This document shows, one piece after another, positions 14,247 to 32,926 of a stretch of DNA of 64,000 bases. Numbering within the stretch: the first letter of the stretch is position 1; every line of letters starts with the position of its first letter. This DNA is from Filomicrobium sp. (GTDB taxonomy: Bacteria > Pseudomonadota > Alphaproteobacteria > Rhizobiales > Hyphomicrobiaceae): contig JAVJSM010000003.1 of NCBI GenBank assembly GCA_040219445.1, positions 821,020 through 885,019 on the forward strand. Reading direction: 5' to 3'. The position numbers were made by a program, and so were the translations under genes. The notes under the pieces were generated by a model that was not told where the DNA came from, did no database searches, and saw only the letters and a program-made list of their open reading frames with translations.

Positions 14247-15953
14247 CTAGGCGTAAACCGCGCCCGGCGCGGTCGCCTCGGTGATGTCTCCGGTGACCGG
14301 CTCAATATCGAATGACAGTCCGAAATCGGCCCGCATATGCAACATCGCTCGCTCTGCAAGCGCGGTGATGGTGAACAGCGGATTGACACCGAGCGAGCGT
14401 GGGATAATCGAGCCATCGATGACGTAGAGGCCAGAGTGGACTGCGGTGGCGTCTGATCCAGCCGAGCGATCGAAGACCTGGCCTTTGTGGTTGACGACAC
14501 CACTTTGGCAGTCCGAACCCATGCCGCAGCCACCAAGCGGATGTGCGGTTGCAGGTTGGTTGCCCATGACCGTTCCAGCCAGTGGGTTCTGGACATAGCT
14601 CCCGCCGAGTTGTCCGGCGATCTTTGACAAGGCTTCACCGAGGCGTTGGTAGACGGGTTCGTCTTTGGCACCTGGCCAGCTGAGCGCAAGCTGATCGCCG
14701 TCGAGGCTGAATGCGCCGGATGCGCTGTCGTGGGAGACCGCGAAGAAAGTCTGCAACCGAGAAAACGGACCGTTATAGACACCGCTGATCAGGCTTTGGA
14801 CGGCACCGAGCAAACGTCCGTTGGGCAAGAACATCACTGGCAGGACCGGGGCGATGGGCGACGGCAAAGCGCCATCCTGGACGGCGAATTGATGATCCAG
14901 ATTGTCCGCATCGTGATGCTCGAGTTGCCCTGTGACGGCGCTGCCGACTTCGAAATTCTCAATCTTTGGTGGATGGCCTATGCCAATGGCGTTGACGGTT
15001 TGATCTCCGCCGTAGCCAAACGCGATGATGTCGCCATTGGCAGAGAACCTTTTGCCGAGTCGCTCGGATACGGCGAGGCCAGACTCAGCTGACCGAAGCA
15101 GGATTTCCGTTGAGCCAAGCGTGCCTGCAGCCAGGATAACGACGTTTGCTTCGATGGTGATCAAAGCGGCTTCGTCTTGTGATTTGCCGGATGATTTATG
15201 GTTGGTCGGCAGGGCTTCAATCTGCCAGCTGCCGTCGCTCCGTTTGACGACGCGGCGCACGCTGATCTCGGTGAAGATTTCGGCACCGTGGCGGGCAGCA
15301 TCCGGCAGGTACGATAAGGCGACGGTATTCTTGGCACCGACGTTGCAGCCTGAGCAGCAGTCACCGCATGAGGTGCAGGCGGTCTGGCGGACGCCCGCCG
15401 GGTTCACGTTGTCCTCGAAGCTTACTGCGACGGGTGTGTCGCGCATGGTGCAATTGGCGGCGTCGGCTGCGCTGGCGACGGCCTGATACTTTGTCATTTC
15501 GCTCGCGCGTGGATGCGTCGAGGGGCGGATCCACTTTTCGGCGTTGGCAAATCCTTTGTCGAGCAGGCCATCTTGACGGATTTGCCCCGGCCAGACTTCG
15601 TCGGCAAAGACACGGTTGTCTGGGCGAAGGGTGACGCCTGCATTAACGAGCGACCCGCCACCCAGGCCACAGCCTGTTAAGACGTGGATGTCTTTGCCCA
15701 GGCGAAGATCGAATAATGCGGTTGGTGAGCCGGAAACCGATGATTTGCTTGTGACGCGCATCTCATTGCGCAGCTCTGGAAAGCGGGAGGGGAATTCGCC
15801 AGTCAGAATTTCGCGGCCGCGCTCAAGGACAGCAACCTTTTTGCCCGCGCGTGCCAACCTGGATGCCGAGACACCCCCGCCGTAACCAGATCCGACGACA
15901 ACGACATCATAATGCGCGCGAAGGTCTTCCAGCGGTCGTGCAAGTCGGCTCAT
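14247..15953 (-). CDS. GMC-family FAD-dependent oxidoreductase (choline dehydrogenase / cholesterol oxidase-like).
   Basis: N-terminal Rossmann motif YDVVVVGSGYGGGVSASRLARAGKKVAVLERG. GMC C-terminal region. Start at ATG (MSRLARPLEDL) rather than the far-upstream TTG 16196. Confidence 0.8.
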   Translation of the reverse strand: MSRLARPLEDLRAHYDVVVVGSGYGGGVSASRLARAGKKVAVLERGREILTGEFPSRFPELRNEMRVTSKSSVSGSPTALFDLRLGKDIHVLTGCGLGGGSLVNAGVTLRPDNRVFADEVWPGQIRQDGLLDKGFANAEKWIRPSTHPRASEMTKYQAVASAADAANCTMRDTPVAVSFEDNVNPAGVRQTACTSCGDCCSGCNVGAKNTVALSYLPDAARHGAEIFTEISVRRVVKRSDGSWQIEALPTNHKSSGKSQDEAALITIEANVVILAAGTLGSTEILLRSAESGLAVSERLGKRFSANGDIIAFGYGGDQTVNAIGIGHPPKIENFEVGSAVTGQLEHHDADNLDHQFAVQDGALPSPIAPVLPVMFLPNGRLLGAVQSLISGVYNGPFSRLQTFFAVSHDSASGAFSLDGDQLALSWPGAKDEPVYQRLGEALSKIAGQLGGSYVQNPLAGTVMGNQPATAHPLGGCGMGSDCQSGVVNHKGQVFDRSAGSDATAVHSGLYVIDGSIIPRSLGVNPLFTITALAERAMLHMRADFGLSFDIEPVTGDITEATAPGAVYA

Positions 15954-16200
15954 TTCGGCTCCCCATCTCACATTGTGCCAAATGCATCCTGATCTCTTAC
16001 CGGCAATGCCGGCAAGCGTCACGGGAGCTGCGACACTGAAATTCGCAAATGTCCTTAAGATCAACGCTTTTGAAATATACTTTCGCCCAATTCCCCCCTT
16101 AGCTCTCCGCCTCCCTTGGGCAACGCCATGTGTTCGGGCTCTGTGAGACCCGTCTAGCGCGCCTCGCTTTGCGGTGCGTGTGTTCTGCAAGTTCAAGGTC

Positions 16201-16275
16201 GAGGCTATAGCTCAGAGGTAGAGCATCTGGGTCAGACCCGGAAGGACGAGGGTTCAAATCCCTTTAGCTTCTCCA
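16201..16275 (+). tRNA. 75-nt class I tRNA gene with encoded CCA and unusual identity. The acceptor stem has G3:U70 (the tRNA-Ala determinant) but the anticodon is CAG (Leu-decoding).
   Basis: Manual fold: acceptor GAGGCTA/TAGCTTC with G3:U70; D arm GCTC-AGAGGTA-GAGC; anticodon arm TCTGG-GTCAGAC-CCGGA; 5-nt variable loop; T arm GAGGG-TTCAAAT-CCCTT; discriminator T then CCA. Confidence 0.6.
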
Positions 16276-16276
16276 C

Positions 16277-16357
16277 GTTCGATGGTCGAACACTGGACTT
16301 TTAATCCAGCTAGCCGAAAGGCTTTCGCAGGTTCGAATCCTGCAATGCGTGTTACCA
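16277..16357 (+). other. tRNA-Sec (selC)-like partial tRNA structure lacking an acceptor stem.
   Basis: 6-bp D-like stem GTTCGA/TCGAAC with a 3-nt loop. Anticodon arm CTGGA-CTTTTAA-TCCAG (the E. coli selC stem is identical; the loop gives anticodon UUU). Long variable arm with GCC-GAAA-GGC. T arm GCAGG-TTCGAAT-CCTGC. No 5' strand pairs with the 3' AATGCGTG. A hairpin follows (ATGCGT...ACGCAT). Confidence 0.35.
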
Positions 16358-16770
16358 AACGCATCTGGTTAGGGGCCAGACCAAAGACTGATGGGAAGCC
16401 GGGCGTTGTGGTCCGGCGAGCTGCGGCAAACGCTTTTGGTTTCGGCCGAAGGTGGGCGCTGCGGTGAGCAGCACGGCTGCCAATATGTGCTGCCGCGGAT
16501 ACCGCTGCGGGACTGTGGCTGGCGCTTCGTGCCCCGGGTCGGTTTGCGCTTCCTTCGGGAAGGCGGTCGGCTCGCAGCGCGCGGCAAAGGTCACAGACCT
16601 GGAGCTTAAGCGGGAGCCCGTGGTCAGTCATGTGGGCTAGGGCGCTCGGCGACCCTTTCGAATGACGCAGCGTGGGCGTCGCAACGGTAGAGAGCACGGT
16701 TGGAGTTCAGGCAGTTCGCTGGTGGCTCCGACCAATATCAAAGGATCGAAATGAAGTAGGAATATGGATC

Positions 16771-17922
16771 ATGTTCGGCATTGGTTTTTTCACAGTAGAC
16801 GTCAAGGATAGCGAACGCGCGTTCTTGTCTCGCAACGGTCGTTTTGAACAATTGCTTGGTCCGGGCCGGTTCCGGACGCTAGATCTTGCCGGGCATTATG
16901 CGGCTGAGATCGTAAACGTTGCGCGTGCCGAAATTCCTGCTGAGCGGGCGTTGATGTTTGAAAAGACGCATCCGAAGCTTGCCGAAGAGAACTTCGTCAT
17001 CGTGCAGACCTCGGCTGAAGAGGTGGCGATTGTTTCTCTCGATGGTGAGCCTGTTCGGTTGGTGCGTCCAAACTCAACGCGCGCGTACTGGAAGACGTTG
17101 ACGCAAGTTGATGTGGAACGCATCGACGCGGCAAGCAACGCACGGTTGACCAACAAGGTTCTCGACCGGTTGGCGGATTTCCAGACCAACTTGTTCAAGG
17201 TCCATGTGATCGAGGAATACGAAGTTGGTTTGTTGTTCATCAACGGTGCGTTTGTTGAGACGCTTAAGCCTGGACGCCATGCCTTCTGGGAAGTCGGCCG
17301 AAAGGTAGAAGTGCGCCGGTTGGATCTCAGGCCGACGCCGCTTGAAGTGACGGCACAGGAGATTTTGACGAAGGACCGCGTTGGTATCCGTGTGACGCTT
17401 ACGGCCTTCTACAAAATCGTATCGCCGCAGAAGGCGGTGATGGGTTCGGGTGACGTTGCCAACACGCTTTACCGGATGGTGCAGTTTGCCATCCGTGAAG
17501 CGGTCGCGACGCGCACGCTCGACGATATCCTTGCCGCACGCGACACGATCGACCGCGAAGTTCGTTCGTTCGTGAGTAAGCGGGCTGAGGATCTTGGTGT
17601 CGAGATCGGTGAAATCGGCGTCAAGGATGTGATCTTGCCCGGCGACGTACGTTCGTTGCTTAACAAGGTCGTTGAGGCGGAGCGGGTTGCGAAGGCAAAC
17701 CTCATTCGCCGTCAGGAAGAAACGGCTGCAACGCGTTCGTTGCTCAACACAGCACGGTTGATGGAAGACAACCCGTTGTTGTTGCGGCTCAAGGAACTCG
17801 AAGCGTTGGAGAAGCTCGTGGAGAAGGTTGGCAAGATTGATTTGCACACCGGCGAAACGGGTGGTTTCGATGCGATGCTTCAGCGCCTCTACAAGTTGGG
17901 TGGCAGCAAAGCAGCTGAGTAA
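16771..17922 (+). CDS. SPFH/band-7 (slipin-like) domain protein.
   Basis: ATG at 16771. N-terminal hydrophobic MFGIGFFTV. SPFH-type core (VTLTAFYKIV...DVILPGDVRSLLNKVVEAERVAKANLIRRQEE). A strong terminator follows. Confidence 0.8.
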   Translation: MFGIGFFTVDVKDSERAFLSRNGRFEQLLGPGRFRTLDLAGHYAAEIVNVARAEIPAERALMFEKTHPKLAEENFVIVQTSAEEVAIVSLDGEPVRLVRPNSTRAYWKTLTQVDVERIDAASNARLTNKVLDRLADFQTNLFKVHVIEEYEVGLLFINGAFVETLKPGRHAFWEVGRKVEVRRLDLRPTPLEVTAQEILTKDRVGIRVTLTAFYKIVSPQKAVMGSGDVANTLYRMVQFAIREAVATRTLDDILAARDTIDREVRSFVSKRAEDLGVEIGEIGVKDVILPGDVRSLLNKVVEAERVAKANLIRRQEETAATRSLLNTARLMEDNPLLLRLKELEALEKLVEKVGKIDLHTGETGGFDAMLQRLYKLGGSKAAE

Positions 17923-20249: not shown

Positions 20250-20605
20250 TTCGCCCCGCCTCGCAGTTGGAAGATCAATCGACGTGTAGCGTTGCGTCAA
20301 CGCTTCGGCAAGTGGCGAGGCTCCTTTGTTCCAGGCCTGTATTTGGTGCGACTTGGTGTGTTGGTGCAGTGGATTTGGGTAGTAATGTCTTAATCACCTC
20401 GTCTCGGCGGGAAAAACTGACTGGTGCGGCGAGGAACAACAAGTGTGCAGTGCAAAATCCAAAGCGCAGAGATAAGTATTAATCCCGAATTAAATTAGGA
20501 ATAATTCCCGTATTTTAGGGGGATTTAGTCATGCCTATTGCGGCGCAACAGGCGTGGGTGTAACTCGTTATTATGGTCATTCCAGCACTGATAAGGAGGT
20601 CTTAC

Positions 20606-20863
20606 ATGACTCGTTCTGTTGCCATCATCGCAGCTTTGGTTCTCGGCACATCGGCCGCTTTTGCCGACTCCAAGCCATCCGACGAAGAAGCCAAAAAGCT
20701 CGCTGAAGCGCTTGCGGCACTTGGTTGCGAAGGTGGCGAGCTGGAGAAAGAAACCGAAGGTAGCGGTACATTCGAAGTTGATGACGCCAAGTGCAAGTTC
20801 GGCGGTCAGTGGGACATCAAGTTCGACAGCAAATATCAGGCAACCAGCATGACCCGCGACTAA
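20606..20863 (+). CDS. Small secreted PepSY-like domain protein.
   Basis: AAGGAGG Shine-Dalgarno. Signal peptide MTRSVAIIAALVLGTSAAFA. Two Cys. Terminator downstream. Confidence 0.5.
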   Translation: MTRSVAIIAALVLGTSAAFADSKPSDEEAKKLAEALAALGCEGGELEKETEGSGTFEVDDAKCKFGGQWDIKFDSKYQATSMTRD

Positions 20864-20894
20864 TCTCGCGGAGCGTTGTTGCTCAGGATATGAA

Positions 20895-20931
20895 GGCAGT
20901 GATCGGTCGCGATCGCTGCCTTTTCTTTTTC
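20895..20931 (+). terminator. Rho-independent terminator.
   Basis: GGCAGTGATCG-GTCG-CGATCGCTGCC stem-loop followed by TTTTCTTTTT. Confidence 0.55.
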
Positions 20932-21021
20932 GGAAAGCCGGCTGTGTTTGGTGCTTCCTCGGGTCGTATGATGTGAACCAACAGTTTCGACTTCAACATG
21001 CCTGGCCGTCATAGTGAGGCG

Positions 21022-22438: not shown

Positions 22439-23026
22439 TCAATCAGCGGCTGATTGAATGGCTGGCACGAGGTGTTCGGGTAGCGGCAGCTTGAGCGCGG
22501 CGTCGCGTCCTGGTTGAGACATCTTTCGCGCGGTTTTTTGGACGATGCGAAATAGTTCGTCTTCCGGCCGGTCTGCTGCGAACGGCGAGAAGTACCAACG
22601 CATGAAAACGAGGCAGGCGACGTCTTCCAACGTTTGGGCTTCGGCGTCTTTTTTTATTGCCCGTTTGGAAAGCAATAGCGCGACACGTTCGCAATCAGTC
22701 TGATCGTATCCCGCTTCAAGCATCAAATCAGATGCGCGTTGACCGTGAAATACTGCAGCGTCTTTGCGCCATGCAAGATAACCGGCACGGCCCTCGGGGT
22801 AGTCGCTGCGTTCTCTGGTCCAGCGTTCGATATGTTGCGCGCGTACGGCAATCTGAAGATGCTCGGACGCCTCAGGTTGAAACTCGCTTAGAACATTCGA
22901 CATGCGTTGGCCGTAAAGGAGTGCCGATGGCGTCGAACGTCCGTCGAGCTCGGTCATGTTTGGGTCGGCGGAATTTGCGTTATCGATTTTTTGGAGCACA
23001 GTTTCTAGGCGGGTTTGGTCCGACAT
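22439..23026 (-). CDS. DUF4202-family protein.
   Basis: 195 aa. AGGAG Shine-Dalgarno before the ATG. Family assignment is from memory of the DUF4202 pattern. Confidence 0.55.
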   Translation of the reverse strand: MSDQTRLETVLQKIDNANSADPNMTELDGRSTPSALLYGQRMSNVLSEFQPEASEHLQIAVRAQHIERWTRERSDYPEGRAGYLAWRKDAAVFHGQRASDLMLEAGYDQTDCERVALLLSKRAIKKDAEAQTLEDVACLVFMRWYFSPFAADRPEDELFRIVQKTARKMSQPGRDAALKLPLPEHLVPAIQSAAD

Positions 23027-30941: not shown

Positions 30942-31075
30942 TGGTTCCTGGTTCGTTCTATTTCCTATTGCTCAATAAGCCTATGCAATTCGGTAATGAA
31001 TTATTGAATCCTGTCTCACAATAGTTCGCCAAAGACTCTCTTTTGATTCTGATTCTTTATTGGCGAGGCCTGGAA

Positions 31076-32926
31076 ATGCTGTACGTCATCTTAGGTTTTC
31101 TAGCACTTGCGTACGGTATCTGGCGTTTGGTCCGCGGCGGCGGGCAACTCAAGCTGCCTGCGCAGATCGGCGGTGAGGATGACAAAGGCGGACGGATGGC
31201 GAAGGCCCGACGTGTAGCACAGACAGCCGGTGGGTTACTCGGCGCTGTGGCTTCTATCGTCGTTGGCTTGTTCCTTCTCGCTTCGACCTCGTTTGTCTTG
31301 ATCGATGCCGATAGCGTGGGGCATCTGAAACGCATCTACGCTTTCCAGGAACTGCCCAAGGGTCGGATTATTGCGCTTTCTGGACAAAAGGGTCCGCAAG
31401 CGAAGATCTTGGGGCCGGGCTTCCATTTTATTCCGCTGGTTCGGGTTCTCTACGATGTGGAGAGCTATCCGGTTGTGAAGGTTCCGGAAGGCCACTACGG
31501 CGAGATTGTCGCCAGAGATGGCCAGGCTATGCCGGACGGTATGTTTATCGCGCCGAAGATCGCGGATGACCGGCTGACCGATATGCTGACGGCTGAGACC
31601 TTCTTGACCGAAGGTGGCTTTCGCGGTCCTCAGGAAACGGTTTTGAAACCGGGGGATTGGCGTCTTAACCGGTACTTGTTCGATGTTCGGGTGCAGGAGT
31701 TCGTTCCGGAGCGTGATGACGATACGCGCGCGACGATCATCCCGGCTGGTCATGTCGGCGTTGTGAAGAGTAACGTTTCGAAGCCGGGTGTTTCGTGCGT
31801 GAAGGAAGAAGTGAAGGCTAGCGAATTCGTTCCTGGTGCTTTGTCGGTACCACTGGTGCCGCCTGGATGTGTTGGGATCTGGCGCGAGCCGCTTTTGCCG
31901 GGTGCTTACTATCTCAACCGCAAAGCCTACGAAGTGACGCTTGTCGATACGCGTGTGAAGACCTGGGAATACAAAGGCGGTTTCACAAAGCGCATTATCG
32001 ATCTGTCGGTCGATCAGCAGGGTAACATCAAGCAGAACGAAAGGACTGAGACGCAGAAAGTCCCGGTCGAAGCTGCAGATCGTGCCGTGTTCGTTAAGGT
32101 AGAGGGTTGGGATATCCCACAAGAGCTGCGTGTGCTTGTGCAGGTCAACCCGAAGAATGCGCCGATTGTTGTTGGTGCTGTTGGCGGGCTTGAGGAGATC
32201 GAGAACCGGATCCTGACGCCGGTTATTCGATCCATTGTTCGCAACGTTGCGGGGTCGGAAATCGAAGTGCCTGATCCGAATGATCCAACGAAGACCATTC
32301 GGCGCAAGACGGAGGTGCTCGATCTCATCGAAAACCGCGATGCGCTTGAGCAGAACATTGAAGATGCGGTGAAACGTGAAGGCCGCAAAGCCGGTGTTGA
32401 AATCCAGGAGATCCGTCTTGGCGAACCGGCTGTGCCGCCAGAGCTTCTTGTGCAGCGTTTGCGTGAGCAGTTAGCAGATCAGCTCTCAAAAGCTTACGAG
32501 CGTGAAACGGCGGCGCAAGCCAAGCGCATCGAGACCGAGCAGGCACGTGCGACGGCAAACGAGCAGCCGCGGCTCGTTGAGGCGCAGATTGCTGTGCAGG
32601 TCGCGAAGCAGCGTGAAGCGGAGCGGGCTGCGCTTGGTAGCGCGGAGCGCCAGTTCCTCGAAGAGCTGGCACGCGGTCAACGGGCCCAGGCTGAAGTTCT
32701 TGGGCAAGACCGGGTTGCACTGTTGCAGGCGTTAGAAAAAACGCTGGCAGCATTACAAGAGAAGCCTGAGTTGGTCGGGCTTATCTCACGGCTTGTTCCA
32801 CATACCATGGTGACCGGCGGTGGCGATGGTGGCTTGGCCGGTGCTGCCGCGATTTTGTCGGGTGTCGTCGGCCAGGGCGGGTCACCCGGCAACCGTTCGC
32901 CTGCCGCGGGTGCGCCGGCGCAGTAG
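31076..32926 (+). CDS. Flotillin-like SPFH-domain membrane protein.
   Basis: N-terminal TM (LYVILGFLALAYGIWRLV) and a second hydrophobic stretch. SPFH-like region. C-terminal alanine/glutamate-rich coiled coil (ERETAAQAKRIETEQARA...AERAALGSAERQ). The track ORF begins at TTG 31043; ATG 31076 is preferred. Confidence 0.6.
   Translation: MLYVILGFLALAYGIWRLVRGGGQLKLPAQIGGEDDKGGRMAKARRVAQTAGGLLGAVASIVVGLFLLASTSFVLIDADSVGHLKRIYAFQELPKGRIIALSGQKGPQAKILGPGFHFIPLVRVLYDVESYPVVKVPEGHYGEIVARDGQAMPDGMFIAPKIADDRLTDMLTAETFLTEGGFRGPQETVLKPGDWRLNRYLFDVRVQEFVPERDDDTRATIIPAGHVGVVKSNVSKPGVSCVKEEVKASEFVPGALSVPLVPPGCVGIWREPLLPGAYYLNRKAYEVTLVDTRVKTWEYKGGFTKRIIDLSVDQQGNIKQNERTETQKVPVEAADRAVFVKVEGWDIPQELRVLVQVNPKNAPIVVGAVGGLEEIENRILTPVIRSIVRNVAGSEIEVPDPNDPTKTIRRKTEVLDLIENRDALEQNIEDAVKREGRKAGVEIQEIRLGEPAVPPELLVQRLREQLADQLSKAYERETAAQAKRIETEQARATANEQPRLVEAQIAVQVAKQREAERAALGSAERQFLEELARGQRAQAEVLGQDRVALLQALEKTLAALQEKPELVGLISRLVPHTMVTGGGDGGLAGAAAILSGVVGQGGSPGNRSPAAGAPAQ

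What the first reader, a model, noticed from the sequence alone, without database searches (positions are those of the whole stretch)
16201..16275. tRNA gene combining the alanine identity pair G3:U70 with a CAG (leucine-decoding) anticodon
A clean 75-nt cloverleaf with encoded CCA folds by hand. The acceptor stem GAGGCUA/UAGCUUC carries G3:U70, the principal AlaRS determinant. The 7-nt anticodon loop GUCAGAC gives anticodon CAG with purine 37. The short 5-nt variable loop excludes a genuine class II tRNA-Leu. Such a molecule would be predicted to be charged with Ala while reading CUG. It could be a mistranslating or regulatory tRNA, a recoding element, or a decaying tRNA-Ala derivative; it also carries three G:U pairs. 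Standard pipelines will label it tRNA-Leu or undetermined.
Basis: seen in the sequence. Interest (0 to 1): 0.55.

Follow-up and report, generated by a model that had tools for sequence, protein, structure and literature searches.

The report
Alanine-type tRNA mimic inside conserved RNA
The cloverleaf is real, but it is one of two tRNA-like modules built into a conserved, roughly 560-base structured RNA that precedes a stomatin-like gene in Hyphomicrobiaceae. Its alanine-type acceptor end is conserved, whereas the CAG 'anticodon' occurs only in this genome, where the neighbouring gene has lost every CUG codon.

Summary
The 75-nt cloverleaf at 16201-16275 (G3:U70, UCCA, loop GUCAGAC) is present exactly as described. 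ARAGORN calls it tRNA-Leu(CAG). It is not a lone tRNA gene. In about 65 related Hyphomicrobiaceae loci the same site holds a conserved, covariation-supported RNA of about 560 nt: a 5' three-way junction, tRNA-like 1 (the finding), tRNA-like 2, hairpins, and a 290-nt closed 3' domain. A slipin (SPFH) gene always lies downstream. Rfam 15 matches only the tRNA model there.

Across 67 copies of tRNA-like 1, G3:U70 (84%) and NCCA (91%) are kept. Some lineages reduce it to a 6-7 bp microhelix-Ala followed by NCCA. The 'anticodon' arm is usually a stem capped by four nucleotides. Only 10 copies have 7-nt loops, and CAG is unique to this window. So the alanine-type acceptor is the conserved feature and the Leu anticodon is not.

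The adjacent slipin gene has 0 CUG among 44 Leu codons. Its nearest relative has 13, 50 orthologs have 7-35, and flanking genes are normal. This purge is specific to one codon, one gene and one lineage, and it keeps the Ala-reads-CUG idea alive. A counter-example (L246) stops it from being general.

The parts
16076..16081 (+). Putative -10 promoter element (TATACT) for the RNA. Inferred only.
   Evidence: The upstream alignment of 53 loci has a conserved T-A/T-rich hexamer (TATACT, TTTAAT or TTTCAT) followed by TCGCC, about 25-30 nt before the first conserved helix. The sigma-70 consensus scan found no full promoter.
16109..16199 (+). 5' domain, a three-way junction: P1 16122-16126/16187-16191, P2 hairpin 16132-16140/16146-16154, P3 hairpin 16156-16165/16174-16184.
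   Evidence: An nhmmer profile of 53 loci matches window 16109-16199 (E = 5.9e-18). RNAalifold predicts 20 pairs, 11 with compensatory changes. The same helices appear in the full-length fold.
16201..16275 (+). tRNA-like 1 (TL1, the finding): a tRNA-Ala-derived cloverleaf with G3:U70, U73 and CCA. Its 'anticodon' arm is capped by GUCAGAC.
   Evidence: Covariation in 38 copies: 98.6% of cells paired, 15 of 21 pairs with double changes, 0 of 500 shuffles reach the observed values. Model R1 scores it 84.6 bits.
16277..16343 (+). tRNA-like 2 (TL2): D arm 16277-16291, anticodon arm 16293-16309 (loop CUUUUAA), long variable arm, T arm 16327-16343. It has no acceptor stem and no CCA.
   Evidence: Rfam tRNA 34.4 bits over model positions 10-63. 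It is present 0-5 nt after the CCA of TL1 in nearly all loci, with a 7-nt loop of variable sequence (CUGUUAA is the most common) and a 3-7 bp acceptor stem outside the Filomicrobium clade.
16345..16379 (+). Two linker hairpins: AUGCGU/ACGCAU at 16345-16364 and CUGG/CCAG at 16365-16379.
   Evidence: One or two hairpins of variable sequence occupy this place in all loci.
16384..16664 (+). 3' domain of about 280 nt, closed by a 12-bp long-range helix (16393-16406/16642-16655). Inner helices: 16432-16440/16445-16453, 16481-16496/16610-16622 and 16504-16511/16598-16605. It carries the near-invariant motifs GGGAAGCCGG, GCGGAUACCGC, GGCUNAAGCG and GCCCGNG, and a T-rich tract follows it in many loci.
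   Evidence: nhmmer matches 16384-16664 (E = 5.8e-30). RNAalifold predicts 35 pairs, 26 with compensatory changes. Full-length fold. Terminator-like hairpins at this end in L017 and L014.
16771..17922 (+). Slipin (SPFH/Band 7) gene that always follows the RNA. In this genome it contains no CUG codon.
   Evidence: Pfam Band_7. The start codon ATG 16771 and its SD were placed from the alignment of loci. P0001 is named 'slipin family protein [Filomicrobium sp.]'. Codon analysis. The predicted fold is MVP/stomatin-like.

Best explanation
The finding is the first of two tRNA-shaped modules embedded in a previously undescribed, conserved structured RNA of about 560 nt. The RNA is laid out as 5' three-way junction, TL1, TL2, hairpins, then a closed 3' domain. 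It is transcribed in the same direction as a slipin/SPFH gene and sits just upstream of it in Filomicrobium, Hyphomicrobium and related alphaproteobacteria.

Shown:
- TL1 descends from tRNA-Ala. It keeps the tRNA core, the G3:U70 acceptor helix and NCCA.
- It has no conserved anticodon. Its anticodon arm is normally a closed stem with a 4-nt cap, often GNRA.
- The CAG of this window is a lineage-specific cap variant.

Inferred:
- TL1 works through its acceptor end. Most likely it is cut out and charged with alanine by AlaRS as an anticodon-less acceptor, comparable to the tRNA-like domain of tmRNA or to a minihelix-Ala. RNase P would cut at its 5' end. In most lineages RNase P would also cut at the 5' end of TL2, which begins right after the CCA.
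- The use of that alanine is unknown.
- In this one genome the cap happens to look like an anticodon loop (U33-CAG-A37). The complete, codon-specific loss of CUG from the adjacent slipin gene suggests that this variant is seen by ribosomes translating that gene. This last step rests on a single lineage.
For: A conserved larger RNA:
- All loci with enough upstream sequence carry the 5' and 3' domains (63 and 64 of 67).
- Covariation supports the 5' domain (11 of 20 pairs compensatory), TL1 (15 of 21) and the 3' domain (26 of 35).
- Rfam 15 matches only its tRNA model, even at E <= 10, in two species.

The anticodon is not conserved:
- ARAGORN assigns a different 'anticodon' in almost every locus, many of 2 or 4 nt.
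- Among the first 55 copies the cap length is 0-8 nt, with 4 nt in 24. Only 10 of all 67 copies have 7-nt caps.
- CAG is unique to the window.
- The nearest relatives L239 (87% aa) and L001 have a 7-bp stem with a CAUU loop.
- The window's loop folds into a 7-bp stem with a triloop.

The acceptor end is the selected part:
- 3:70 is G:U in 56 of 67 copies, while 2:71, 5:68, 6:67 and 7:66 covary.
- NCCA is present in 61 of 67 copies.
- L011, L018, L020, L025 and L062 replace the cloverleaf with a 6-7 bp helix that keeps G3:U70 plus NCCA.
- The L018 helix GGGGCCG-GGAA-CGGCUCC-ACCA is identical to the acceptor stem of the genuine tRNA-Ala(CGC) of L001.
- The best-scoring true tRNA against the TL1 model is that tRNA-Ala (77 bits).
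- G3:U70 is the major AlaRS determinant, and AlaRS charges minihelices (PMC9976931).

The CUG purge:
- Slipin has 0 in-frame CTG among 44 Leu codons, against 13.2 expected from neighbouring genes (p = 1.6e-7). Out-of-frame CTG is normal.
- All 13 CTG codons of L239 at conserved Leu sites are replaced (9 TTG, 3 CTT, 1 CTC) and none is gained.
- In the flanking genes 17 of 28 CTG are kept and 16 are gained (Fisher p = 1.5e-4 and 2e-3).
- CTG is the only codon whose usage changed strongly between the window and L239 (p = 2.4e-5).
- Fifty orthologs have 7-35 CTG.
Against: - No expression, processing or charging data exist.
- The minor bacterial Ala determinants are missing in this copy: A2:U71 instead of G2:C71, U73 instead of A73, and U20 instead of G20.
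- 11 of 67 copies lack G3:U70, and L050 lacks TL1 altogether.
- In the window's clade TL2 has no acceptor stem, so it is unclear how a free CCA end would be produced.
- No aminoacyl-tRNA-using enzyme was found next to the RNA.
- The codon link is not general. L246 has G3:U70, UCCA and a CAA loop, yet its slipin keeps 7 UUG codons.
- Codons cognate to the TL2 loops are not depleted (mean rank 0.52, n = 45).
- The window's loop can close to a triloop, like other caps in its clade.
- A proteome-wide Ala-for-Leu decoder should also depress CUG in other genes, and it does not (26% of Leu codons in neighbouring genes).
Confidence: 0.6

Rival explanations
1. One reading: a stand-alone, functional elongator tRNA that AlaRS charges with alanine and that decodes CUG, causing regulated Leu-to-Ala mistranslation or recoding.
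For: - The cloverleaf, G3:U70, encoded CCA, U33 and A37 are all present.
- CUG is completely and specifically purged from the co-oriented downstream gene.
- Copies whose canonical-looking loops are cognate to abundant slipin codons have lost G3:U70. L240 has CUC with 38 of 38 GAG, A3:U70 and G1.A72. L047 has UAG with A3:U70.
Against: - CAG is absent from all 66 other copies, including the 87%-identical relative.
- The element is embedded in a larger conserved RNA.
- G32:C38 and U33:A37 close the loop.
- CUG remains at 26% of Leu codons in neighbouring genes, with gains since the split from L239.
- L246 (CAA loop, G3:U70) shows no UUG loss.
- Relatives carry ordinary class II tRNA-Leu(CAG) genes.
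Confidence: 0.2
2. The modules are purely architectural or processing elements. TL1 and TL2 would be tRNA mimics that fold the RNA and recruit tRNA-binding factors such as RNase P (which also recognises NCCA), modification enzymes, or the slipin cage itself. There would be no aminoacylation. CAG would be a neutral cap variant, and the CUG-free slipin would be an unrelated, codon-based regulatory quirk.
For: - The tRNA core nucleotides are invariant (U8, A14, G18, the G53-U54-U55-C56 T-loop run, A58).
- GNRA-type caps are common, which is typical of tertiary docking.
- TL2 has no CCA and only a truncated acceptor stem, yet it is equally conserved.
- In the window's clade nothing obvious would free the CCA end.
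- L246 is a counter-example to the codon link.
- In this clade the 7-nt caps read as a 7-bp stem with a triloop.
Against: - It does not explain why G3:U70 is held as a wobble pair while its neighbours covary.
- It does not explain why lineages that delete the whole tRNA body keep exactly a G3:U70 helix plus NCCA, identical to a tRNA-Ala acceptor stem.
- The CUG purge would then coincide by chance with the only CAG cap among about 67 lineages.
Confidence: 0.3
3. A decaying tRNA gene pair (pseudogenes), or a remnant of a mobile-element attachment site.
For: The anticodon is odd, TL2 lacks an acceptor stem, and some relatives have tRNA gene arrays nearby.
Against: - The cloverleaf pairs are kept through compensatory changes across deep divergence.
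- The flanking 5' and 3' domains are conserved and covary.
- No integrase or repeat lies nearby, and the flanking genes are housekeeping genes.
- No PADLOC hits.
Confidence: 0.03

Closest known systems
tRNA-like domain of tmRNA (SsrA)
   Same: An alanine-type acceptor helix (G3:U70 plus NCCA) and a T arm without a decoding anticodon, carried within a larger structured RNA. This follows from established knowledge of tmRNA. Here G3:U70 and NCCA are conserved.
   Different: - TL1 is a complete, contiguous cloverleaf in the middle of the RNA, not formed by the 5' and 3' ends.
- No tag reading frame is conserved.
- Neither ARAGORN nor the Rfam tmRNA models report a tmRNA here.
- There is a second tRNA-like module and unrelated flanking domains.
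Synthetic minihelix-Ala and microhelix-Ala substrates of AlaRS (Francklyn and Schimmel 1989, cited in PMC9976931)
   Same: In L018, L020, L062, L011 and L025 the element is a 6-7 bp hairpin with G3:U70 followed by NCCA. In L018 the stem equals a tRNA-Ala acceptor stem.
   Different: These are natural, genome-encoded and embedded in a precursor RNA. Charging has not been tested.
Non-proteinogenic tRNAs such as the Staphylococcus aureus cell-wall tRNA-Gly (PMC9976931)
   Same: Chargeable tRNAs diverted from ribosomal decoding. TL1 has a wobble pair at 49:65, one of the T-stem positions (49-65, 51-63) that the review says are replaced in those tRNAs to escape EF-Tu (G:U in 26 of 38 copies).
   Different: Those tRNAs keep a normal anticodon and are separate genes. 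No Fem or MprF-type user enzyme was identified here.
tRNA-Ala(CAG) of the yeast Pachysolen tannophilus, and anticodon-mutant tRNA-Ala mistranslators (from my own knowledge, not checked here)
   Different: Those are bona fide tRNA genes with a conserved anticodon and genome-wide effects on CUG. Here CAG is one cap variant of a normally anticodon-less module, and only the adjacent gene lacks CUG.
tRNA-mimicking ncRNA modules: bacterial YrlA (Y RNA-like), mascRNA/MALAT1, plant-virus 3' tRNA-like structures
   Same: A tRNA-shaped domain within a larger RNA, recognised by tRNA enzymes. There are weak sub-threshold Rfam matches to YrlA (20.9 bits against a threshold of 69) and to mascRNA (21 against 42.5) over TL1 of L012.
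   Different: All matches fall below the family thresholds. There is no rsr/Ro gene nearby. The architecture has two tandem modules and the flanking domains are different.
Vault particle (major vault protein plus vault RNA)
   Same: The gene always linked to the RNA encodes an SPFH protein that appears soluble. Its predicted fold gives its longest structural alignments to major vault protein (query TM-score 0.42-0.46 over 430-488 columns).
   Different: This is an analogy only. No binding has been shown, vault RNAs are not tRNA-shaped, and the best E-values are to stomatin and HflK/C.

Membership tests
Canonical elongator tRNA (decoding) | Cloverleaf with conserved tertiary core (U8, A14, G18-G19, T-loop) | tested here: met
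   Rfam tRNA 61.5 bits. The core nucleotides are invariant in 38 copies, and covariation supports the fold.
Canonical elongator tRNA (decoding) | Open 7-nt anticodon loop whose anticodon is conserved among orthologs | tested here: not met
   Only 10 of 67 copies have a 7-nt cap. There are ten caps with eight different central triplets, and CAG occurs in the window only. The window's loop closes through G32:C38 and U33:A37.
Canonical elongator tRNA (decoding) | Independent gene that yields a mature, aminoacylated RNA of about 76 nt | not testable with these tools
   No expression or charging data. The element lies inside a conserved RNA of about 560 nt.
tRNA-Ala (bacterial identity set A73, G2:C71, G3:U70, G4:C69, G20; PMC9976931) | G3:U70 wobble pair | tested here: met
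   Present in the window, and G:U in 56 of 67 copies.
tRNA-Ala (bacterial identity set A73, G2:C71, G3:U70, G4:C69, G20; PMC9976931) | Minor determinants A73, G2:C71 and G20 | tested here: not met
   The window has U73, A2:U71 and U20. A2:U71 occurs in 42 of 55 copies and U73 in 36 of 55, counting all tails that begin with U. The microhelix lineages L011, L018 and L025 do have G2:C71 and A73; L020 and L062 have G2:C71 with U73. G4:C69 is met (50 of 55).
tRNA-Ala (bacterial identity set A73, G2:C71, G3:U70, G4:C69, G20; PMC9976931) | Alanine anticodon (NGC) | tested here: not met
   No copy has an NGC anticodon loop.
tRNA-Leu (class II) | Long variable arm and A73 | tested here: not met
   The variable loop is 5 nt and the discriminator is U73. 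Genuine tRNA-Leu(cag) genes of relatives are 84-86 nt.
tmRNA (one-piece or alphaproteobacterial two-piece) | tRNA-like domain formed from the RNA ends, plus a tag reading frame and pseudoknots; recognised by ARAGORN or the Rfam tmRNA models | tested here: not met
   ARAGORN finds no tmRNA. The only Rfam matches reported over this region are to the tRNA model, and lower-scoring same-clan matches were not listed. No conserved ORF is seen in the 5' or 3' domains, where helices covary instead.
T-box-like tRNA sensing | A leader nucleotide that covaries with the discriminator base (UGGN:NCCA), or a specifier that pairs with the anticodon | tested here: not met
   No column of the 5' or 3' domain is complementary to N73 (highest mutual information 0.33, not complementary). 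The TL2 loop has no consistent partner.
YrlA / Y RNA-like | Rfam RF02553 match at the gathering score and linkage to rsr | tested here: not met
   20.9 bits against a threshold of 69. No Ro/TROVE gene among the flanking genes examined.

The most novel reading that the evidence does not exclude
TL1 is a dedicated alanine acceptor released from a large precursor RNA. It is a natural anticodon-less tRNA-Ala, reduced in some lineages to a bare microhelix-Ala, and it feeds alanine into a codon-independent process linked to a vault-like SPFH cage. In this Filomicrobium lineage its cap mutated into a working CAG anticodon, so the molecule now inserts Ala at CUG. The co-expressed slipin gene escaped by replacing all of its CUG codons. 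That would be a natural, ongoing case of codon capture or avoidance driven by a mischarging tRNA in a bacterium.
Probability: 0.25. Interest if true: 0.9.

Novelty: new variant of a known kind. Interest (0 to 1): 0.74.

Why it matters
- It gives pipelines a rule. Dozens of Hyphomicrobiaceae genomes carry these elements, which ARAGORN here labelled as tRNAs with odd or undetermined anticodons (Leu, Gln, Thr, SeC, Stop, '???'). They should be annotated as modules of one RNA family, not as decoding tRNAs.
- The RNA is a sizeable, well-structured family of about 560 nt. It is absent from Rfam 15 and was not found in the literature searched. It contains the only natural microhelix-Ala-like hairpins I am aware of.
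- This makes two questions directly testable. Do bacteria use anticodon-less, AlaRS-chargeable RNAs other than tmRNA? What does the linked, apparently soluble, MVP-like SPFH protein do with such an RNA?
- The CUG-free slipin gene next to the only CAG-capped copy is a rare natural experiment on how a potential mistranslating tRNA and its neighbouring gene co-evolve.

Tried and rejected
- tmRNA, including the permuted alphaproteobacterial type: no ARAGORN or Rfam tmRNA hit and no conserved tag ORF.
- A known Rfam family for the flanking domains: nothing at E <= 10 in two species.
- T-box-like pairing with the NCCA end: no covarying partner for N73.
- TL2 anticodon pairing with another part of the RNA, or a kissing loop with the downstream hairpin: no consistent or covarying partner.
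- General avoidance in slipin of codons cognate to the tRNA-like loops: rejected for TL2 (mean rank 0.52). The low AAA count in the window's slipin is shared by all orthologs, so its link to TL2(UUU) is spurious.
- A helix tethering the 5' and 3' domains: none in the full-length consensus fold.
- Integrative-element att site or defence island: no integrase, housekeeping flanks, no PADLOC hits.
- Small ORFs on the minus strand over the RNA (16254-16697, 16352-16594): discounted because the helices covary.
- Metagenome scan with GGAAGCCGG-N(65-95)-CGGATACCG: the pattern was too loose. Only 3 of 171 hits were real (L090, L096, L158), and they have the same architecture.
- Two protein searches meant to reach slipin outgroups returned only close relatives (>= 59% identity), so the phylogenetic edge of the RNA was not found.
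- Literature searches for a described equivalent found nothing.
Full report
OBSERVATION

ARAGORN reports it as tRNA-Leu(cag), the only tRNA in the 64 kb. The Rfam tRNA model scores it 61.5 bits, E = 6.9e-11. The acceptor stem GAGGCUA/UAGCUUC contains G3:U70 and is followed by U73 and an encoded CCA.

Two things were missed. First, G32:C38 and U33:A37 can close the 'anticodon loop'. RNAfold's minimum-energy and centroid structures show a 7-bp stem with a CAG triloop. Second, a further tRNA-like element (TL2) begins two bases after the CCA, at 16277-16343. It has D, anticodon (loop CUUUUAA), long variable and T arms, but no acceptor stem and no CCA (Rfam tRNA 34.4 bits over model positions 10-63).

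CONTEXT

The element lies in an 817-nt non-coding gap. On one side is a divergent GMC oxidoreductase gene, whose real start is near 15953. On the other is a co-oriented SPFH/slipin gene whose real start is ATG 16771. The surrounding genes are housekeeping genes: comM, rsmI, lpoA-like, folD, yggU, yggT. No integrase is nearby. The slipin protein is 100% identical to a protein annotated in a Filomicrobium sp. MAG.

COMPARATIVE ANALYSIS

Using the slipin protein I fetched 67 loci from species-representative genomes, almost all Hyphomicrobiaceae, Filomicrobium, Hyphomicrobium or Rhodomicrobium. ARAGORN finds a tandem pair of 'tRNAs' at the same place in most of them. It assigns almost every locus a different anticodon, and many are 2- or 4-nt 'anticodons' labelled tRNA-???.

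The sequences show one large conserved non-coding unit.
- 5' domain. A -10-like hexamer is followed by a three-way junction. RNAalifold predicts 20 pairs, 11 with compensatory changes. Window helices are 16122-16126/16187-16191, 16132-16140/16146-16154 and 16156-16165/16174-16184.
- TL1, the finding.
- TL2.
- One or two hairpins.
- 3' domain of about 280 nt, closed by a 12-bp long-range helix (16393-16406/16642-16655), with near-invariant motifs such as GCGGAUACCGC. RNAalifold predicts 35 pairs, 26 compensatory.

nhmmer profiles of the 5' and 3' domains hit 63 and 64 of the 67 loci. The misses are contig edges, truncated slipins or the distant Shewanella outlier L067. L036 has two tandem copies. 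In L036 and L063 a dapA-like gene lies between the RNA and slipin, and in L028 an HdeA-family gene does. Several loci have a T-rich tract or a terminator-like hairpin at the 3' end of the RNA. The RNA is therefore probably its own gene with read-through into slipin, rather than a classical leader. Slipin is the only syntenic neighbour, although the loci were chosen through slipin. Rfam 15 matches only its tRNA model in this region, even at E <= 10, in two species. Five literature searches found no description.

ANATOMY OF TL1 ACROSS LINEAGES

In 38 copies the cloverleaf is strongly supported. 98.6% of cells are paired, 15 of 21 pairs show double changes, and none of 500 shuffles reaches the observed values. 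The tRNA core nucleotides are invariant.

I built a covariance model (R1) and combined its hits with later look-ups, giving 67 cloverleaf copies.
- 3:70 is G:U in 56 copies (84%), although 2:71, 5:68, 6:67 and 7:66 covary freely.
- The tail is NCCA in 61 copies (91%).
- In the first 55 copies the 'anticodon' cap is 0-8 nt long. It is 4 nt in 24 of them, mostly GNRA-like (GCAA, GAAA, GAGA, GGAA).
- Only 10 of the 67 caps are 7 nt. Their central triplets are CAG (window only), UUG three times, ACA, UAG, UGG, CUC, UGA and CAA.
- The two closest relatives (L239 at 87% aa identity, and L001) have a 7-bp stem with a CAUU loop.

In L011, L018, L020, L025 and L062 the whole tRNA body is replaced by a 6-7 bp hairpin that still has G3:U70 and NCCA. 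The L018 hairpin GGGGCCG-GGAA-CGGCUCC-ACCA is identical to the acceptor stem of the genuine tRNA-Ala(CGC) of L001. That tRNA is also the best-scoring true tRNA against model R1 (77 bits).

So the acceptor helix with the alanine identity pair and the CCA end is what selection keeps, and the anticodon is what it does not keep. G3:U70 is the major AlaRS determinant and AlaRS charges minihelices (PMC9976931). The minor bacterial determinants (A73, G2:C71, G20) are absent from the window's copy.

TL2

TL2 keeps a 7-nt loop, usually with U33 and a purine at 37, but its triplet varies (GUU is the most common). It has no CCA. Its acceptor stem is 3-7 bp and starts 0-5 nt after the CCA of TL1. In the Filomicrobium clade the acceptor stem is missing altogether. 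Outside that clade an RNase P cut at TL2 would leave TL1 with a mature CCA end. This is an inference.

TESTS THAT FAILED

- No column of the RNA is complementary to the discriminator base, so there is no T-box-like pairing.
- The TL2 loop has no consistent partner.
- No helix links the 5' and 3' domains.

THE UNEXPECTED RESULT

To test for recoding I checked CUG codons in the adjacent slipin gene.
- The gene has none: 0 of 44 Leu codons (CTC 10, CTT 11, CTA 1, TTG 22). Eight neighbouring genes use CTG for 26% of Leu, so 13.2 were expected (p = 1.6e-7). CTG out of frame occurs at a normal rate.
- Fifty slipin orthologs have 7-35 CTG each.
- Against the nearest relative L239, all 13 CTG at conserved Leu positions are replaced (9 TTG, 3 CTT, 1 CTC), and none of the 27 other Leu codons became CTG. 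This is in a gene where 60% of codons at identical residues are unchanged.
- In the four flanking genes 17 of 28 CTG are retained and 16 are gained (Fisher p = 1.5e-4 and 2e-3).
- CTG is the only codon whose usage differs strongly between the two slipin genes (p = 2.4e-5; TTG p = 0.013; all others p > 0.06).
- No other real gene in the window is CTG-free.

The one genome whose TL1 cap reads U33-CAG-A37 is therefore also the one genome whose downstream gene has been purged, in frame, of the cognate codon.

IS THIS GENERAL?

- For TL2 it is not. The mean rank of cognate-codon usage is 0.52 over 45 loci. L054 has CUU with AAG at 20 of 20, and L029 has GAU with AUC at 22 of 22. The low AAA count in the window's slipin is shared by all orthologs.
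- For TL1 with 7-nt caps the picture is mixed.
  - L240 has CUC, cognate to 38 of 38 Glu codons, but A3:U70 and a G1.A72 mismatch.
  - L047 (UAG) has A3:U70, and L048 (UGG) has G3:C70.
  - L037 (UUG) and L243 (UGA) keep G3:U70, and their exact cognate codons are absent from slipin, but those codons are rare everywhere.
  - L246 keeps G3:U70 and UCCA and has a CAA cap, yet its slipin retains 7 UUG codons. This is a clear counter-example.
- Most 7-nt caps in this clade, including the window's, can also be read as a 7-bp stem with a triloop.

The CUG purge is statistically solid but rests on a single lineage. I treat its link to the CAG cap as plausible, roughly one chance in three, and not as shown. 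A freely diffusing Ala-tRNA(CAG) should also depress CUG in other genes, and it does not. If the link is real, the effect must be either local to the slipin transcript or especially harmful to this oligomeric protein.

MECHANISM, WITH STEPS MARKED

- Shown: a conserved multi-domain RNA. TL1 is a tRNA-Ala-derived module whose acceptor end is conserved and whose anticodon is not. CAG is lineage-specific. Slipin lacks CUG.
- Inferred: TL1 is excised and alanylated as an anticodon-less acceptor, analogous to the tmRNA tRNA-like domain or to a minihelix-Ala. TL2 and the 5' leader provide the processing sites.
- Speculative: the alanine is used in a codon-independent process connected with slipin. 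In this genome the cap variant gives TL1 some access to CUG codons.
- Main rival: a purely architectural or processing tRNA mimic, with the CUG purge coincidental.

SIDE OBSERVATION ON THE PARTNER GENE

The slipin has no obvious membrane segment. Its AlphaFold model (pLDDT 79) consists of N-terminal beta-repeat domains, an SPFH domain and a long helix. The best Foldseek E-values are to stomatin, HflK/C and prohibitin. The longest alignments and highest query TM-scores (0.42-0.46) are to major vault protein. An RNA that travels with a vault-like cage protein is an attractive but untested idea.

VERDICT

It is partly wrong: this is not a stand-alone tRNA, the anticodon is not a conserved feature, and the element is not decaying. 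The underlying object is an undescribed RNA family with embedded tRNA mimics.

Noticed in passing
window 16277-16343: A second tRNA-like element (TL2) directly follows the CCA of the finding. It has D, anticodon (loop CUUUUAA), long variable and T arms, but no acceptor stem and no CCA. It is conserved in nearly all related loci with a variable 'anticodon'.
   Followed up: yes
window 16771-17922: The slipin gene has 0 CTG among 44 Leu codons. All 50 orthologs examined and the neighbouring genes use CTG freely. The nearest relative (L239) has 13 CTG, and all of them are replaced here.
   Followed up: yes
window 16771-17922 (protein): The slipin appears soluble, with no obvious TM segment. Its predicted fold (beta-repeat domains, SPFH domain, long helix) gives its longest structural alignments to major vault protein.
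   Followed up: partly
L012 7759-10243; L016 7368-8456; L023 7822-10586; L055 7430-9330: Long arrays of 8-20 canonical tRNA genes, including class II tRNA-Leu(cag), lie 0.7-4.5 kb downstream of slipin in several Hyphomicrobiaceae MAGs. The window has no such array.
   Followed up: no
window 20300-21020 versus L001 9721-9796 and L239 6647-6722: The tRNA-Ala(CGC) gene that follows yggT in the two closest relatives is absent from the equivalent place in the window. That place instead holds AT-rich DNA and a small ORF that begins with a hydrophobic, signal-like segment.
   Followed up: partly
L036 2845-3329 and 3465-3969: The whole RNA (5' domain, tRNA-like modules and 3' domain) is tandemly duplicated in this MAG. 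A dapA-like gene lies between the second copy and slipin.
   Followed up: partly
L020, L050, L052, L062 (TL2): In one subclade the TL2 loop is CUUCAAC, so ARAGORN calls it tRNA-SeC(tca), which looks like an opal suppressor. This is the same subclade in which TL1 is reduced to a microhelix (L020, L062), degenerate (L052) or lost (L050).
   Followed up: no
window 31025-32923: A second, larger SPFH/Band 7 (flotillin-like) gene lies 13 kb downstream. Its CTG usage is normal (16 CTG).
   Followed up: no
window 22439-23026 (-): A DUF4202 gene has only 1 CTG among 20 Leu codons. This is mildly low and was not analysed further.
   Followed up: no
L066 5924-6031: In this MAG only the 5' domain of the RNA remains, abutting a slipin fragment that matches only query residues 326-416. 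This looks like a deletion that removed the tRNA-like modules, the 3' domain and most of slipin together.
   Followed up: no
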